This document shows, piece after piece, positions 45,001-54,000 of a stretch of DNA of 64,000 nt. The stretch lies in sequence record OR786310.1, one strand, 5' to 3'. The position numbers were made by a program. The first letter of the stretch is position 1, and every line of letters begins with the position of its first letter. Origin of the DNA: Escherichia phage ETEC-TG.

Positions 45001-48000
45001 AGGAACCACTTTACGTAAAGCTTGTCCCAGTTGTCCATTACCACCCAATACCAGATATGTTAGCATACACCCTCACTACGCAACTGTTGAAAAGATTTAG
45101 CCATTGCATCTTTTGTTGATAAGATAGGTTTAAAATCTTCATCAAAAATCATATCAAAGCCCCAATCGATCCCTATATCAGGATCATCCCAACGTAAACT
45201 TTGTTCGCTAGAAGGGTCGTATGGAGTTGTGCATTTGTATTCAAAGATAGCATCCATACTCAAAACTATAAAACCATGTGCCAAACCAGGTGGAAGCCAA
45301 AATTGCGTATGGTGTCGTGCACGAAGAACAACACCGTCCCAAGCACCGTAAGTTGGACTATCTTTACGTAAATCTACAGCGAAATCCAATACTTCTCCAC
45401 TTACACAACGAACAAGCTTACCTTGCGGGTTGTTTGTTTGGAAGTGCATTCCTCGCAAAACACCGAAGTTTGATTTAGACATGTTATCTTGAACGAAAGT
45501 TTGTCTACCAATAATATCTTCGTATTTTTGTTCATTGTATGTTTCTAAAAAGAAACCACGATCATCTTTATAAACGTCTGGTTTGATAATTACCGCACCT
45601 TCAATTTTTGTTTTTTCTACTTTCATTTTCTCTCCTTACCAGACATGTTGAGAAATAATAGTTTCCGTTTTAATGTTATATTTTTCAAGTAGCTCTGCAT
45701 AGGCTTCTTTTGCATTCTCATTTAATTGCTCAAGATCTACAGCTACGCTTCCTTCTCCGCCTTCTAAATAAATACCATATATGCAATAAGACTCATCAGC
45801 ATCGTAGAAAGGAGAGATGCGACTTAAGTCCAGACCTTCTTGTAAGAACCAGTTAAAATCTCCGTCAAATTCTTCTTCAATTCTAGGATCTTCTCCTACA
45901 GCCTCTTCCCACTTATTAAAAGGTGCACCCTGTAACATACGCCATTCGATATCAATACCCATTTTTCATCTCCTCCTCTTGAGCAGCTTTAATAATTGCT
46001 TCATAAATATCGTAAGCAATGCCTCCACAACATCTAGCTTCGAAAGCTATTGCTTCTGCAATGTGGTCTGTTAGTTCTCGTGGAATTCGGACATACTCTT
46101 TTTCACTCTCCATCTTCTACCTCCGACCCTGCTTTTTCAAATACTACTACTCGTCCTTCACCATGACAATTCAGGCAAGGAAATGTTACCATAATTTCCA
46201 CTTCCATCTGTCCAGTCCCACCACACACAGGACAAAAAATAAGTTTTTCAGCCATTATTCCTCCTTAATTATTTCAAACTTGGCAACACCATTTACAATA
46301 ATATGACCACAAGACATAACTCCTAGCCAAGGATCGCCGTTTTTCTTCAGGCGTTTACCGAATACATCACAAAAACCATTCTTCATTTCGGAGGCTTCAT
46401 AAGAAGCCCCTTTGTCAAAAACGTCTTTGAATGTGTCGATTATACCAACACATCTCAAAATCATTAGAAGTCAAGCTCCTCATCATCAGAGAGATCTTTG
46501 TTAGCTGAATTCAATTTGTAATTAGTTAACTGAATCTCTTGGGCTGCTGACTGAATCAAATCAGGATTCAACCATTTTTCCATCCAAGCTAAAGGACTAT
46601 GTTTAGGTGCTTTAAACTTGGCTTTCATTTTCAATCGACGATAAATAGGAGCAGCATTGAAATAAACCCACTGTTTAGACAATTCGGCGTTAAGACCTAC
46701 AATAAAACGACCTTCACTAAACAGGTAGTCACACCACTGTTCCTCTTGTTCAACAACAGTGTCGAGGATCAAAGTCAACTCTTCAATATTGTCTTCGTAA
46801 ATTTTACGCCAAATTGGGTCATGCATCAATGCATCAATTACAGCATAATCCATCTTAACATGCAAGATTTCATCTAGCATAATTTTCTGGATCAGCTTAC
46901 AAGCCCCAACAAACAATTGTTGTTCTGCCATAGCAAAAGTAGCAGAGAAGGAAGATATAAACTGAATACCTTCTAATCCAATCAGGGCTACCATCCCTTT
47001 AAGAATCAGCAATCGAAGTTCATCGTTAGCTTCAATCAATCCTAGAGCATACTTATGACCAGCTTCTTCCAACTGACCCATGATATCAGCAATGATACCC
47101 ATACGATTGAAAATTTTATCATTAATCATAATCTGATTGATGACTTCAATTGGATCTGGAGTACATTGACGGATTATTTCAGAATACGTTAACGCATGGA
47201 GAACTTCCATTTCACTCTGCTTCATCATCATAGCACAGGCTTCATTGTTACTCAAGAATGGAGAGAACAAAGTGATGATTGATTTTGCAAGAGAATCATT
47301 TTCCCATTGGAACGATAAGTTTTTAATCATAACATCGTAGTTGTTTTTAGAACAAGCTACGAAATCTTTACGTGTCTGATCCAAGTTAACTTCGTTTTCA
47401 TCCCAATCTTGTGCTTTTTGAAGTTTGTAGAGTTTGTGCATTTCTGGATAAGTTACGTTAACAGAATCAAAGATCCCTAATTGCTCCCCCAAAAATACTG
47501 GATATTTTCCTGTTTTGTAAACTTCGTTGTGTAAATTAATTGCTGCCATTTAAAATTCTCCTCGATAAAAAGGGGCCGAAGCCCCTTTATATTTAGCCTC
47601 GAAATACTGTTTTTGTTTCCGCCAGGTGCCAATAGAAATCCGCCTTGTTTACAAGAGTGTTGTACACCTCTGGATAAAAATGTTCTTCCTCTTTGTAACG
47701 ATCCGCTGTTTCCCTGATTGACTTAGCTTTATCCTTTAGCCAAGCGAAGTGTGCCTCTTCCTCTGTAGCGAAGTAGCCTAAATGCTTACCTTTACTTCCA
47801 GAAGCTTTTGCATAAATCTTACCATCTTTCCTAACATGTGCTCCTAGTAAGTATTTTCTTTCATACCTTTTAGCATAACTTAAGAGTGTATTTATGTAAG
47901 GAGGAACAAACCTACAATATTCAGGACAATAAACAGTATTTCCTTCAAGAACAAGATCTTTATCTAAAACAAAGCCTTCCACGCTATGTTCTTGATACCA

Positions 48001-51000: not shown

Positions 51001-54000
51001 TCAACAGAATAGTGTGAATCTTCAGCCATACCCAGCATTACAAGCGACGCTCTAATAACAGCATTTTGTTTCTCGTGTGGGATATTGCCATTGTGTTTAT
51101 TTGATTCTAGTTTCCAGATAGGGGTAGACATTACAGTAGACATGCTTACGGTAGCCCAAGTTGTAGTATTTACTAATGACATATTTTCTCCTTCATTTTG
51201 AATGGGAGGACTCACCTCCTCCCAGTATTGTGCTATATTATACTAAAACTAATACTAAAGTCAATAATTATTTAAACAGATCACCATTTAGTATGATTTG
51301 TTAAAAGTTGACGATGTTGAATCCAGCCTTTGAAATTGCCAGACCAAAACTTACCATTACGATCTACATGGGTAATACCTGGTTCCCAAGAGTTAAAATC
51401 CCAAGGAGCATTGATAAACAAATCTTCAAAACAGTTCTCCCCATATTGTTCGCATGTTTCTTGCATTGGGGTGGCTTGATGTTCAAACGGAGAAGCATGA
51501 ACCTTGCGCCCAGTCAGCAAACGACCATAGATATCTAAAGCTTTATCTTTAGTTGCATTCAAACGACGATAACTAACCTGTGCACAACACGAAGCTGAAA
51601 TAGCTTTGGCTTCTTCCAAAGTAAGCACAACAACTTCTCCAGATTCATCTTGAACATAGTATCCACCAAAAACAAAATGATCGTCACCTTCTGTGCCAAT
51701 ATTATCATAGAAATGGTTTACATAAGGTGTGTGCCATTGCCCTGGTTTCAGCACTTCTGGTGTAGATTCTTCATACTCTTTGTGCATCTCTTTAGCCAAA
51801 GCTTCGATAGTAGGATCGGCTTCTTTGTCATCACGTAGCCACCAGAAATTTTCATATTCTGTTGCTGTCAGAACTGTTTTAATTCGTTGGAAAGGTTCCA
51901 GAAGACGGTTTGCAACTTGTTTGTGGTACCCTGCCAAAGAGAATTCTTCTGCAAAACGTGCTGCACTAAGCGCGGCAAGATCCCACCACTCTTGAGCAGT
52001 ATAACCTGCATCAATAAGAGCATCATGGTCAACACCTTTGTCCTGCATACCAGGTTGGTTAGCCCCGAAACGATAAGGACGAGCAGGCTGATTTCGAACC
52101 ATTTCGATCAGTGTTTTAACAGGTATAGCACGGCTAGAAGCAGCATTACGACTGAACAGGCGGTGAGTCATCAGTTCTGAATGAATAATACGTGGATATT
52201 CAAGTTCGAAAGTTACAATCTCTTTTCCGTCTTCAGTGATGGAATGTGCAATAATACTAGCCGAAATCTGTTTTGTCATTTTTTCTCCTTAGTTTTTAAA
52301 ATTGTTCAAAGTGTTAAAAACATCCAAACATGTTAGCCACTGATCTTCTAAACCTGTGATCACAACATTTGGTTTTTTCTTTAGTTCTTCTAGATGGTTA
52401 TCTTTATAAGGCGTATTAAAATATATTTTAACCACTTCATCTGGAAAATATAGTAGGTTATCAGCCCTGTCATCTATGGCTATATCACAAGGCAATAAAT
52501 ATTTTTCTTTTGTAGCAAAAAAGCCGTTACCAGATCCTTTGCTAAAATCAATCGTGTCCAATGTTCTTAAAACATGTTTATGTTTAGAACTTAAGTGACC
52601 ACCTTTTGTCACACTTGCGATCAAAAGATTGCCACCTTTCCTTGAAACATACTTTAAGAAATCTGGCATACCTGGAACAAAACCCATTGTATCGTAGAGA
52701 TGAGGATTATCCAGAAATCCGTAAGGATCTATGTTGAACTCTTCCCTGAAACCAGGAAAATAGTTGGTAAGATCGTAATCTGCATTTTTTGTGAATGTGT
52801 CGATTTTAACACCAAGGCCACTAATCTTATTCAACCATTCTAACCAAGCAACATCTAACGGAGCCACAACTAAATCCCAATCACATACTATCTGCATAAA
52901 ACCTCCTCTCTCTTTTAGTATAGTTATCTTATACTAACTTTCAATTTCCTGCAATAGGATTTTGACTATTTGTTTACGGCGTTTTGCTACTGTGCTTTCA
53001 GGTTCTATTTTACGCTTCTTCAGCCACGCTTTATCTTTCTTAGCTCTACACAAAGCTATCGCTTCTTTTTCAGCTTTTGCTTCTTCAAAAGATATGCCTT
53101 GCTTGTCTGCATAAGCAAGAATAGAGTTGCACAATTTACAAACCATTCGCAAATCTTCTTCTTTCACATAGATCAAACGGAAAACAAAAAGGGGAATATC
53201 CTCAAAACATTGAAGTTGTTTTGCTGCGTGAATATGATCCACTTGGAAGTCTTTCATTCCTCCTCTGTGTCCACATATTTCGCACTCACAATTCCAAACT
53301 TGTTTTGGTTTTCCAGTTTTCTTGTCTATCATCACATTGCCGTCTTTATCTACACGATCAACTTTAAAACGCCTTGCATTGATAACCTTAATTTTATTAG
53401 GGTGTCTCATCCATGCTTTTCTAAAACATCCCCTAAGATAAGTATAAAATTCAGCTTGTGTTTTCCAGGGTGTTCCTTCACCCCACATTATTTTTGGTTC
53501 ACCTGCCAATATTGCTCACCTTTTTAGCTGTATATTCCCCTGGTGGGATATTGTGTTTAAAAAACAAAAGGCGGTCTAACCCCGCCTTGCACATTGTTTC
53601 TGGAATAGTCAAAGTTAGTAAAAGTTTATCACCTTTTCGATTGAATATTTTATAAACTTCTCCTGCTCCATATTGTTTAGTATTGCTCGCCACTAATACG
53701 TTCCTTAAGTTGTTTAATAGCTTCAACTGCATCTACATAAGAAGAGTTATACATGTGTTTCAGTGCCACTCGGATTAAAGGATCTTTTGTGAAGAAATCA
53801 ATAAGAAGCATAGCTTGATCATGTTTAGCTGCATTTGTCATAGATGGATAATTTTCACGAACCATATACGTGTTATTTTGCATAAGGGTTCTTTCTAGTT
53901 CAATACAATGAATAGCTTTATCTAGGTTAATCTGACGTTCACCTTTAATACGTGTTGCGTATTTTGCCAATTTGCAAAAACAAGGTGTGCCACCAACCAA

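What the first reader, a model, noticed from the sequence alone, without database searches (positions are those of the whole stretch)
47593..53509. Homing-endonuclease-like genes flanking nucleotide-metabolism genes
An AP2-domain protein sits between nrdA and nrdB (the mobE position in T4), and an HNH endonuclease (52934-53509) sits between the HAD nucleotidase gene and downstream ORFs. Freestanding homing endonucleases at these sites would mark recent horizontal exchange.
Basis: partly seen in the sequence, partly recalled or inferred. Interest (0 to 1): 0.4.

Follow-up and report, generated by a model that had tools for sequence, protein, structure and literature searches.

The report
One mobile endonuclease gene, one fixed nuclease
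In this phAPEC8-like E. coli phage, the gene between nrdA and nrdB behaves as a mobile homing-endonuclease cassette that has jumped between phage genera, while the second "HNH" gene is a fixed, vertically inherited nuclease of the replication module; both are ordinary for large lytic phages.

Summary
The window is a Phapecoctavirus (98.5% identical to Escherichia phage iGC_PHA_EC001). Both ORFs exist at the stated coordinates.

ORF1 (47593-48249, minus strand) belongs to the published IPA-HNH family of AP2-associated putative homing endonucleases (hhalign against ICP1 gp59: E 4.7e-42).
- It lies in a 708-bp cassette (47586-48293) between the nrdA stop codon and the nrdA terminator.
- The cassette is absent from about 46 closely related records. 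It has an internal deletion in ZCKP1 and is reduced to a scar in DE16.
- In Justusliebigvirus PD114 the ORF1 protein is 99% identical and the cassette DNA 97-100% identical, while the flanking nrdA and nrdB DNA is only 65-80% identical.
- Every cassette-bearing allele carries a recoded nrdA 3' end.
- dN/dS is 0.07-0.09, so the protein is under purifying selection.
- The homing reading is well supported for ORF1. Cleavage is untested, and the predicted catalytic histidine is an invariant lysine.

ORF2 (52934-53509) is a real zinc-stabilised HNH nuclease but shows no sign of mobility.
- It is single-copy (553 places in 552 records) and syntenic in every relative examined across four phage lineages.
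- It has the same record counts per identity band as its neighbour gene (133 records).
- Its divergence tracks its flanking genes.
- It is most likely a core replication/recombination nuclease.

Low novelty; interest 0.27.

The parts
47586..48293 (-). Mobile cassette (708 bp): recoded last 33 nt of nrdA, ORF1 ribosome-binding site, ORF1, and 7 nt after its stop codon. It replaces 38 bp (GATGGTGGTTGTGAAGCTTGCAAGATGTGATGAAACTA) of the empty allele.
   Evidence: Multi-allele alignments. Identity to Justusliebigvirus PD114 is 97-100% inside about 47556-48300 and 65-80% within 100 bp outside.
47593..48249 (-). ORF1, 218 aa, a member of the IPA-HNH family of putative homing endonucleases
   Evidence: hhalign of family profile A3 against ICP1 gp59: probability 100%, E 4.7e-42. 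PHROG 953, E 1.5e-56. dN/dS 0.07-0.09. AlphaFold2 pLDDT 92.
47881..47973 (-). Predicted beta-beta-alpha core of ORF1 (residues 93-123, FVLDKDLVLEGNTVYCPEYCRFVPPYINTLL). D96, K97, D98, C112 and N120 are invariant in 120 homologues.
   Evidence: Alignment A3. The model has strands 94-96 and 113-115 and helix 117-123. The only hhalign alignment to I-HmuI puts D96/K97/C112/R113/N120 on D74/H75/N87/R89/N96, but it is not significant (E 0.14).
47692..47853 (-). AP2-type DNA-binding domain of ORF1 (residues about 133-186)
   Evidence: 65 of 120 family members hit PF00847. The top five PDB hits of the family profile are all AP2/ERF domains. The model has three strands followed by a long helix.
48124..48234 (-). 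N-terminal four-stranded beta region of ORF1 (residues 6-42), specific to the phAPEC8/phi92 clade. Other family members have DUF723, DUF4379 or CapR zinc modules here instead.
   Evidence: AlphaFold2 secondary structure; alignment A2; Pfam scan of the family.
48255..48259 (-). ORF1 ribosome-binding site (AGGAG), 5 nt before the ATG and directly after the nrdA stop codon
   Evidence: Sequence. The equivalent site is annotated as a ribosome-binding site in phi92.
48261..48293 (-). Recoded 3' end of nrdA linked to the cassette (..EDSEDEGCSACKM* instead of ..EDS-DGGCEACKM*). It keeps the C-terminal CxxC pair.
   Evidence: All cassette-bearing, remnant and scar alleles in two genera carry it. All never-invaded alleles in three lineages carry the GCEAC or GCESC form.
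47567..47585 (-). Stem-loop GGGGC-TTCG-GCCCC followed by T5. It is the nrdA terminator in empty alleles and lies after ORF1 here, so ORF1 sits inside the nrdA transcription unit.
   Evidence: Sequence. RNA fold -16.5 kcal/mol. Conserved at the same place in empty and filled alleles. The consensus terminator scan did not flag it.
48261..50504 (-). nrdA, class Ia ribonucleotide reductase large subunit
   Evidence: Pfam PF02867 (E 2.9e-97), PF00317 and ATP-cone.
46464..47549 (-). nrdB, ribonucleotide reductase small subunit
   Evidence: Pfam PF00268, E 6.3e-33.
52934..53509 (-). ORF2, 191 aa, a conserved single-copy HNH (His-Me finger) nuclease of the replication/recombination module. It is not demonstrably mobile.
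   Evidence: PHROG 1985, E 6.8e-66. 553 places in 552 phage records. Synteny. Identity tracks flanks. Identity bands equal those of the neighbour gene.
53117..53293 (-). HNH core of ORF2 (residues 73-131): C76-x2-C79, D91-H92, C124-x2-C127-N128
52289..52897 (-). NT5C/HAD-type 5'(3')-deoxyribonucleotidase (context)
   Evidence: Pfam PF06941, E 1.8e-5.
51281..52279 (-). thyX, flavin-dependent thymidylate synthase (context)
   Evidence: Pfam PF02511, E 1.6e-8.

Best explanation
ORF1 is a free-standing homing endonuclease gene of the IPA-HNH family (a divergent HNH-3-like core plus a C-terminal AP2 DNA-binding domain).

Shown:
- ORF1 lies in a 708-bp cassette inserted between the nrdA stop codon and the nrdA terminator.
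- The cassette is present, absent, internally deleted or reduced to a scar in otherwise near-identical phages.
- The same cassette has moved between the genera Phapecoctavirus and Justusliebigvirus.
- The protein is under strong purifying selection.

Inferred:
- ORF1 is translated from the nrdA transcript.
- In a mixed infection the protein binds, through its AP2 domain, and nicks or cuts the cassette-less allele. The likely target is the conserved stretch GGTTGTGARGCTTGYAAGATGTRATGAAACTAGGGG. This stretch encodes the C-terminal redox cysteines of NrdA and runs up to the terminator.
- The break is repaired from the cassette-bearing genome. This copies the cassette plus 100 bp or less of flanking DNA.
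- The insertion and the recoded nrdA 3' end protect the carrier from its own enzyme.

ORF2 is not a mobile element. It is a zinc-stabilised HNH nuclease with a helical tail, inherited vertically as a fixed member of the exonuclease / polymerase-exonuclease / nucleotide-metabolism module. I infer that it is a structure-specific recombination or debranching nuclease, in the manner of T4 endonuclease VII.
For: ORF1:
- Family membership: hhalign against ICP1 gp59, E 4.7e-42. The family is described in PMC10448857. AP2 is present at family level.
- The family is multi-copy and scattered: 2552 places in 1506 phage records. Phage nieznany has three paralogues.
- Allele states at the nrdA-nrdB site: empty in about 46 records; filled in 21 records; internal deletion in ZCKP1; scar in DE16, joined at a TAAAG microhomology.
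- Discordant history: ORF1 is 99% identical to that of PD114, where nrdA and nrdB are 87% and 84% identical. It is only 85% identical to that of ESCO5, where both are 100% identical. Nucleotide identity to PD114 is 97-100% inside the cassette and 65-80% within 100 bp outside it. dS between the window and ESCO5 alleles is 1.24.
- All cassette-bearing alleles share the recoded nrdA end.
- dN/dS is 0.07-0.09.

ORF2:
- HNH fold and motifs.
- One copy per genome.
- Same position in every genome examined across four phage lineages.
- 99-100%, 76-77%, 61% and 38% identity, in line with its neighbours.
- Record counts per identity band of 64/6/63, equal to those of the adjacent polymerase-exonuclease gene.
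- In Vequintavirus MaxTheCat, a true Endonuclease_7 protein (PF02945, E 1.5e-7) lies between the 5'-exonuclease and the DnaQ-like exonuclease. That is the slot the ORF2 homologue occupies in Nankokuvirus LSL4. In Phapecoctavirus ORF2 lies on the other side of the polymerase-exonuclease gene, within the same module.
- No Endonuclease_7 homologue is found by tblastn in 132 kb of a Phapecoctavirus genome.
Against: ORF1:
- No cleavage has been shown for any IPA-HNH protein in the literature I could search.
- Pfam and NCBIfam give no nuclease domain for ORF1.
- The only alignment to a solved HNH-3 enzyme is not significant (E 0.14). It places an invariant lysine where the catalytic histidine should be and a cysteine at the structural asparagine.
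- Patchy distribution and discordant history could in principle arise from ordinary recombination without a dedicated nuclease.
- The proposed target site is an inference from allele comparison.

ORF2:
- hhalign against the Vequintavirus endonuclease VII found no homology.
- The last 13 kb of the nieznany genome was not checked.
Confidence: 0.72

Rival explanations
1. ORF1 is a catalytically dead, domesticated AP2-type DNA-binding protein, for example a regulator acting at the nrdA-nrdB junction. Its patchy distribution would then come from ordinary homologous recombination between co-infecting phages, not from self-promoted homing.
For: The position expected for the general-base histidine is an invariant lysine, and the structural asparagine is a cysteine. 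No nuclease family is detected by Pfam or NCBIfam. The phi92 record annotates the orthologue as a 'potential transcription factor'. Strong purifying selection fits any functional protein.
Against: The putative metal ligands D96 and N120, and the lysine itself, are invariant in 120 homologues. A dead site would be expected to drift. The family is multi-copy and sits beside essential genes, as homing endonuclease genes do. The cassette has sharp boundaries and carries its own recoded target flank. Alleles with deletions and scars show that the gene is dispensable to the phage, which is unlike a needed regulator.
Confidence: 0.17
2. ORF2 is also a homing endonuclease gene, but one that went to fixation long ago in this phage group.
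For: It is a small HNH protein annotated as 'HNH (homing) endonuclease' in many records. It lies among nucleotide-metabolism genes, a usual niche for such genes. Vequintavirinae have a different nuclease in the same module, so the gene was gained or replaced at some time.
Against: There are no empty sites among 133 Stephanstirmvirinae records, judged by counts. It is strictly single-copy. It is syntenic out to Pseudomonas Nankokuvirus at 38% identity with catalytic residues kept. Its divergence tracks its flanks. A fixed homing gene with no remaining targets is expected to decay, and this one has not.
Confidence: 0.08
3. ORF2 works with the terminase in genome packaging, as the HK97 gp74-type HNH proteins do, rather than in recombination or debranching.
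For: HNH proteins of similar size assist terminases in several phages (discussed in PMC10448857).
Against: ORF2 lies in the replication and nucleotide-metabolism module, next to exonuclease genes and not next to packaging genes. The same genome type encodes a different small HNH protein, nieznany gp213, just before the tail genes.
Confidence: 0.05

Closest known systems
IPA-HNH putative homing endonucleases (ICP1 gp59, gp115/116 and gp209; Barth et al. 2023, PMC10448857)
   Same: Clear homology (hhalign E 4.7e-42 to gp59), including the same LDKD...GN.VYCPEYC.VP..IN core and a C-terminal AP2 domain. Like ORF1, these genes are free-standing and sit next to essential replication or nucleotide-metabolism genes. 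The paper finds 18% of the family near ribonucleotide reductase genes.
   Different: ORF1 has a short N-terminal beta region specific to its clade, in place of the DUF723, DUF4379 or CapR zinc modules of many members. The paper does not mention phAPEC8-like phages for this family and reports no cleavage data.
T4 MobE (free-standing HNH homing endonuclease between nrdA and nrdB)
   Same: Same genomic niche and gene order: nrdA, endonuclease gene, (small ORF), nrdB. The expected mode of action is the same, namely cutting the endonuclease-less allele of the reductase locus and co-converting flanking DNA. The MobE mechanism is from my own knowledge of Wilson & Edgell 2009 and was not re-read here.
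   Different: MobE is a 141-aa canonical PF01844 HNH protein without AP2. It shows no detectable similarity to the ORF1 family (hhalign E 0.48). The shared position is convergent.
I-HmuI and HNH-3 + AP2 homing endonucleases (His-Me finger group 2, PMC5714182; Magnani et al. 2004)
   Same: An N-terminal nuclease core followed by a C-terminal DNA-binding module that includes AP2. ORF1 has a predicted beta-beta-alpha element with identical spacing RxVxxxIN (ORF1 R113-N120, I-HmuI R89-N96) and a conserved aspartate before the base position.
   Different: The Pfam HNH_3 model does not detect ORF1. The general-base histidine (H75) corresponds to an invariant lysine, and the structural asparagine (N87) to an invariant cysteine. 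The similarity is not statistically significant.
T4 endonuclease VII and other zinc-stabilised HNH nucleases (ZRANB3 HNH, GVE2 HNH, McrA), compared with ORF2
   Different: There is no significant sequence homology to endonuclease VII. ORF2 has its own conserved N-terminal helical region and a C-terminal helical tail that draws SAP-domain matches. Junction cleavage is untested.

Membership tests
IPA-HNH homing endonuclease family (ORF1) | Sequence homology to the founding members ICP1 gp59 and gp209 | tested here: met
   tblastn hit to ICP1 ORF59. hhalign of the family profile against gp59: probability 100%, E 4.7e-42, 238 aligned columns.
IPA-HNH homing endonuclease family (ORF1) | C-terminal AP2 DNA-binding domain | tested here: met
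   65 of 120 homologues hit PF00847. The top five PDB hits of the profile are all AP2/ERF domains, best E 6e-4. ORF1 alone is below Pfam detection.
IPA-HNH homing endonuclease family (ORF1) | N-terminal divergent HNH-3-like (His-Me finger) nuclease core | tested here: inconclusive
   [not shown]
Free-standing homing endonuclease gene, functional definition (ORF1) | Presence/absence polymorphism at one site among close relatives | tested here: met
   Filled in 21 records. Empty junction in about 46 records. Precise junctions were mapped.
Free-standing homing endonuclease gene, functional definition (ORF1) | Gene history discordant with flanking genes (horizontal spread) | tested here: met
   99% protein identity to PD114 against 84-87% for the flanking genes, and 85% to ESCO5 against 100% for the flanks. 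Sliding-window boundaries.
Free-standing homing endonuclease gene, functional definition (ORF1) | Carrier allele differs from the empty allele at or next to the insertion point (self-protection) | tested here: met
   All carriers have the recoded nrdA 3' end (11 substitutions and a 3-nt insertion in the last 33 nt) plus the insertion itself. That this confers resistance is inferred.
Free-standing homing endonuclease gene, functional definition (ORF1) | Site-specific cleavage of the empty allele and super-Mendelian inheritance in mixed infection | not testable with these tools
   This needs an enzyme assay and phage crosses.
T4 MobE-type HNH (ORF1) | Sequence homology to MobE / canonical PF01844 HNH motif | tested here: not met
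   MobE hits PF01844. hhalign of the ORF1 family against MobE gives probability 0.1%, E 0.48. Only the genomic position matches.
HNH / His-Me finger nucleases (ORF2) | Beta-beta-alpha-metal fold with catalytic D-H, a downstream N, and zinc-binding cysteine pairs | tested here: met
   [not shown]
Free-standing homing endonuclease gene (ORF2) | Presence/absence polymorphism at the site among relatives | tested here: not met
   Present in all examined Phapecoctavirus and Justusliebigvirus genomes and in Klebsiella phage 05F01. Record counts per identity band are 64/6/63, identical to the adjacent gene.
Free-standing homing endonuclease gene (ORF2) | Discordant history or multiple scattered copies | tested here: not met
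   553 places in 552 records. One copy in the window. Identity of 99-100%, 76-77%, 61% and 38% tracks the neighbours. No jump in identity across ORF2.
T4 endonuclease VII-type junction-resolving enzyme (ORF2) | Membership of Pfam Endonuclease_7 and cleavage of branched DNA | tested here: inconclusive
   [not shown]

The most novel reading that the evidence does not exclude
The IPA-HNH core of ORF1 may be an active His-Me finger nuclease that uses an invariant lysine (K97) where every characterised HNH enzyme has the general-base histidine, and a cysteine (C112) where the structural asparagine sits. If so, this very large phage family (1506 phage records) would represent a non-canonical chemistry. 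The Phapecoctavirus nrdA-nrdB site would be a ready test system, because natural filled, empty, deleted and scar alleles are all available. The alternative version is that the protein only targets DNA and another nuclease does the cutting.
Probability: 0.35. Interest if true: 0.45.

Novelty: new member of a known kind. Interest (0 to 1): 0.27.

Why it matters
- The result separates a truly mobile selfish gene from a look-alike core nuclease. Both are annotated identically as 'HNH endonuclease' in public records.
- For phAPEC8- and phi92-like therapeutic phages, it marks the nrdA-nrdB junction as a recombination hot spot and a boundary of genetic exchange between genera.
- It offers a natural series of alleles (sensitive, invaded, decaying, scar) for testing whether IPA-HNH proteins, never assayed so far, really cut DNA despite lacking the canonical histidine.
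- Otherwise it is an expected feature of large lytic phages.

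Tried and rejected
- Pfam, NCBIfam and PDB sequence searches with ORF1 alone gave nothing useful.
- Homology of ORF1 to T4 MobE was tested and rejected.
- hhalign of the ORF1 family against I-HmuI gave the expected register but no significance. I do not claim HNH membership as tested.
- Homology of ORF2 to the Vequintavirus endonuclease VII was tested and not found.
- The consensus terminator scan missed the GGGGC-TTCG-GCCCC-T5 hairpin. I rely on the sequence, its fold energy (z = -1.9, modest) and its conservation instead.
- I searched the window for further copies of either family and found none.
- I considered that the 99% identity with Justusliebigvirus could be an assembly or contamination artefact. 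I rejected this because three independent isolates (PD114, VEcB, UAB_1) carry it.
- The literature searches I ran (Phapecoctavirus with 'homing endonuclease'; phi92 with 'HNH endonuclease' and 'ribonucleotide reductase') returned no paper describing this locus as a homing site.

Full report
**Identity of the window and check of the observation**

All genes in 43-58 kb lie on the minus strand. A 7.7-kb query across the finding matches 92 phage records. The best is Escherichia phage iGC_PHA_EC001 at 98.5%, and 64 records match at 95% or more. All of these are phAPEC8-like myophages (Stephanstirmvirinae, Phapecoctavirus).

Read in the direction of transcription, the gene order is:
- exonuclease, then the polymerase-exonuclease subunit (54385-55344), then three small ORFs;
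- ORF2 (52934-53509);
- an NT5C/HAD nucleotidase (52289-52897);
- thyX (51281-52279), then two small ORFs;
- nrdA (48261-50504);
- ORF1 (47593-48249);
- nrdB (46464-47549).

**What ORF1 is**

Pfam and NCBIfam find no domain in ORF1 alone. PHROGs places it in 'HNH endonuclease' families, with phrog_953 at E 1.5e-56.

A profile search returned 934 homologues. In an alignment of 120 of them, R55, Y66, W75, W84, D96, K97, D98, Y107, C112, N120, G136, A166 and K174 are invariant. 65 of the 120 hit Pfam AP2. The five best PDB matches of the family profile are all plant AP2/ERF domains. The AP2 label is therefore right at family level.

tblastn finds the family at 2552 places in 1506 phage records, often with several copies per genome. 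One of these places is ORF59 of Vibrio phage ICP1. ICP1 gp59 is a founding member of the 'IPA-HNH' class of putative homing endonucleases defined by Barth et al. 2023 (PMC10448857). hhalign of my family profile against gp59 gives probability 100% and E 4.7e-42. ORF1 is a member of that family.

**The nuclease core of ORF1**

The AlphaFold2 model is confident (pLDDT 92). It shows:
- an N-terminal four-stranded beta region;
- two helices;
- a beta (94-96), beta (113-115), alpha (117-123) element;
- an AP2-like three-stranded sheet with a long helix (137-186);
- a terminal helix.

I recovered residues 13-100 of I-HmuI, the solved HNH-3 homing endonuclease, from the PDB. The only hhalign alignment between it and the family puts D96/K97 on D74/H75, C112 on N87, R113 on R89 and N120 on N96. 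The RxVxxxIN spacing is identical in the two proteins. The alignment is not significant, however (E 0.14).

**Mobility of ORF1**

The nrdA-nrdB junction exists in at least five states among near-identical phages:
- (a) Empty. The nrdA stop codon is followed 9 nt later by the hairpin GGGGCTTCGGCCCC-T5, giving a 44-nt spacer before the nrdB start. This state is seen in anhysbys and most genomes.
- (b) ORF1 present. This is the state in the window, nieznany and others.
- (c) ORF1 plus an extra 112-aa ORF after the hairpin, as in ESCO5.
- (d) ORF1 with about 500 bp deleted internally, plus the 112-aa ORF, as in ZCKP1.
- (e) A scar in DE16. The recoded nrdA end, the ORF1 ribosome-binding site and the first 22 nt of ORF1 are joined directly to the hairpin at a TAAAG microhomology.

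A sixth arrangement also occurs: the empty-type nrdA 3' end followed by the 112-aa ORF alone, as in PNJ1809-36. About 46 records cover at least 80% of an empty-junction query; this count includes that arrangement and the DE16 scar. 21 records, roughly 17 distinct phages, carry ORF1.

The cassette is 47586-48293. It replaces 38 bp of the empty allele and includes a recoded nrdA 3' end..EDSEDEGCSACKM* instead of ..EDS-DGGCEACKM*. The recoded end is found in every filled, deleted and scar allele. It is found in no never-invaded allele of Phapecoctavirus, Justusliebigvirus (ALITA) or Klebsiella phage 05F01.

**Discordant history of ORF1**

ORF1 is 99% identical in Justusliebigvirus PD114, VEcB and UAB_1. 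In PD114, the one of these compared gene by gene, NrdA and NrdB are only 87% and 84% identical and ORF2 is 77% identical; ORF2 of UAB_1 is likewise about 77% identical.

A 100-nt sliding window shows 97-100% identity to PD114 from about 47556 to 48300. Identity falls to 65-80% within 100 bp on each side.

The reverse pattern also holds. PD114 and phi92 are 97-100% identical in the flanks but 84-91% identical inside the cassette. ESCO5 is 100% identical to the window in NrdA and NrdB but 85% identical in ORF1, with dS 1.24. The first ~90 nt of ORF1 are identical between the window and ESCO5, and the remainder is markedly more diverged, which suggests a recombination point inside the gene.

dN/dS between diverged alleles is 0.07-0.09, so the protein is kept functional.

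Taken together, this is the full pattern expected of a homing endonuclease gene cycle: invasion, spread across lineages, decay and loss.

**Likely mechanism of ORF1 (inferred)**

ORF1 has its own AGGAG ribosome-binding site directly after the nrdA stop codon. It lies upstream of the hairpin that ends the nrdA transcription unit in empty alleles. It is therefore probably expressed together with nrdA.

The two invaded lineages share the stretch GGTTGTGARGCTTGYAAGATGTRATGAAACTAGGGG at the empty site. This stretch encodes the C-terminal CxxC tail of NrdA and abuts the GC-rich hairpin. It is my candidate recognition and cleavage region. Carriers are changed there by both the insertion and the recoding.

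The tract shared with PD114 suggests that co-conversion extends 100 bp or less on each side. None of this has been tested biochemically.

**What ORF2 is**

It shows none of the marks of mobility:
- It occurs at 553 places in 552 records, so it is single-copy.
- It occupies the same position in Phapecoctavirus, Justusliebigvirus and Klebsiella phage 05F01. It lies in the same exonuclease / polymerase-exonuclease / thyX / nrdA module in Pseudomonas Nankokuvirus LSL4.
- Its identities of 99-100%, 76-77%, 61% and 38% follow those of its neighbours.
- The number of records in each identity band (64 at 95% or more, 6 at 80-90%, 63 at 60-80%) is the same as for the adjacent polymerase-exonuclease gene.

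In Vequintavirus MaxTheCat, a genuine Endonuclease_7 protein lies between the 5'-exonuclease and the DnaQ-like exonuclease, which is the slot the ORF2 homologue occupies in LSL4; in Phapecoctavirus ORF2 lies on the other side of the polymerase-exonuclease gene within the same module. tblastn finds no homologue of that protein in 132 kb of a Phapecoctavirus genome. I therefore infer that ORF2 is the structure-specific recombination or debranching nuclease of this phage group. My confidence in that specific role is moderate, about 0.45.

**Comparison with known systems**

T4 has nrdA, mobE, nrdB.1 and nrdB in that order, so the positional analogy is real. However, MobE is a canonical PF01844 HNH protein with no detectable similarity to ORF1. 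Different endonuclease lineages have occupied the same niche.

ORF1 is already annotated as 'HNH endonuclease' in RefSeq relatives, and its family was described in 2023. I found no paper describing this particular locus as a homing site.

**Verdict**

This is a new, well-documented member of a known kind of element. Its one mildly unusual feature is the invariant lysine at the presumed catalytic position. Interest is 0.27.

Noticed in passing
Absent from the window (would lie at about 47556, between the hairpin and the nrdB start). Present at L003:2637-2975, L004:2637-2975, L011:2647-2985 and L006:12811-13146.: A second polymorphic insert at the same junction. A 112-aa ORF lies between the nrdA terminator and nrdB in ESCO5, ZCKP1, phAPEC8, PNJ1809-36 and Justusliebigvirus ALITA, independently of whether ORF1 is present. 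It has no Pfam or NCBIfam family.
   Followed up: partly
L012:3717-3968 (T4 nrdB.1): T4 nrdB.1, the small ORF between mobE and nrdB, hits the NUMOD3 DNA-binding motif typical of homing endonucleases (PF07460, E 1.7e-5). It may be a detached or remnant endonuclease DNA-binding module.
   Followed up: no
window 45635-45847, compared with L014:19290-21378: About 2.1 kb carrying the dTDP-glucose 4,6-dehydratase and glucose-1-phosphate thymidylyltransferase genes is present in nieznany and, at least for the dehydratase gene, ESCO5, but missing here and in anhysbys. The rmlC-like and rmlD-like genes (44224-45626) are retained.
   Followed up: partly
window 52898-52933, compared with L008:9071-9634 and L006:7610-8173: Justusliebigvirus phages carry a thymidine kinase gene between ORF2 and the NT5C gene. 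The window has only a 36-bp spacer there.
   Followed up: no
L014:1590-2261 and L017:15946-16524 (phage nieznany): The close relative nieznany has two more IPA-HNH paralogues with the same DKD motif. One is at its left end and one is directly after DNA polymerase I, the same position as gp59 in ICP1. Neither region lies in this window, and the window beyond about 59.9 kb is not collinear with nieznany.
   Followed up: partly
L016:26486-27946 (nieznany gp136); no counterpart in the window: A 486-aa 'endonuclease' with five CapR homology domains (PF21817, E 1.4e-28), which are DNA-binding repeats of T5orf172-type homing endonucleases. It has no homologue in the window, although the surrounding region was expected to be collinear.
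   Followed up: partly
L016:39228-43302 (nieznany, outside the window): The anaerobic reductase gene nrdD is annotated in three or four pieces with a 170-aa ORF between them. This may mean intron or endonuclease interruption of a second reductase locus.
   Followed up: no
[not shown]
   Followed up: no
window 47567-47585: The consensus terminator scan reported no terminator in 47300-48600, although a GGGGC-TTCG-GCCCC hairpin followed by T5 is there and is conserved in all alleles.
   Followed up: yes
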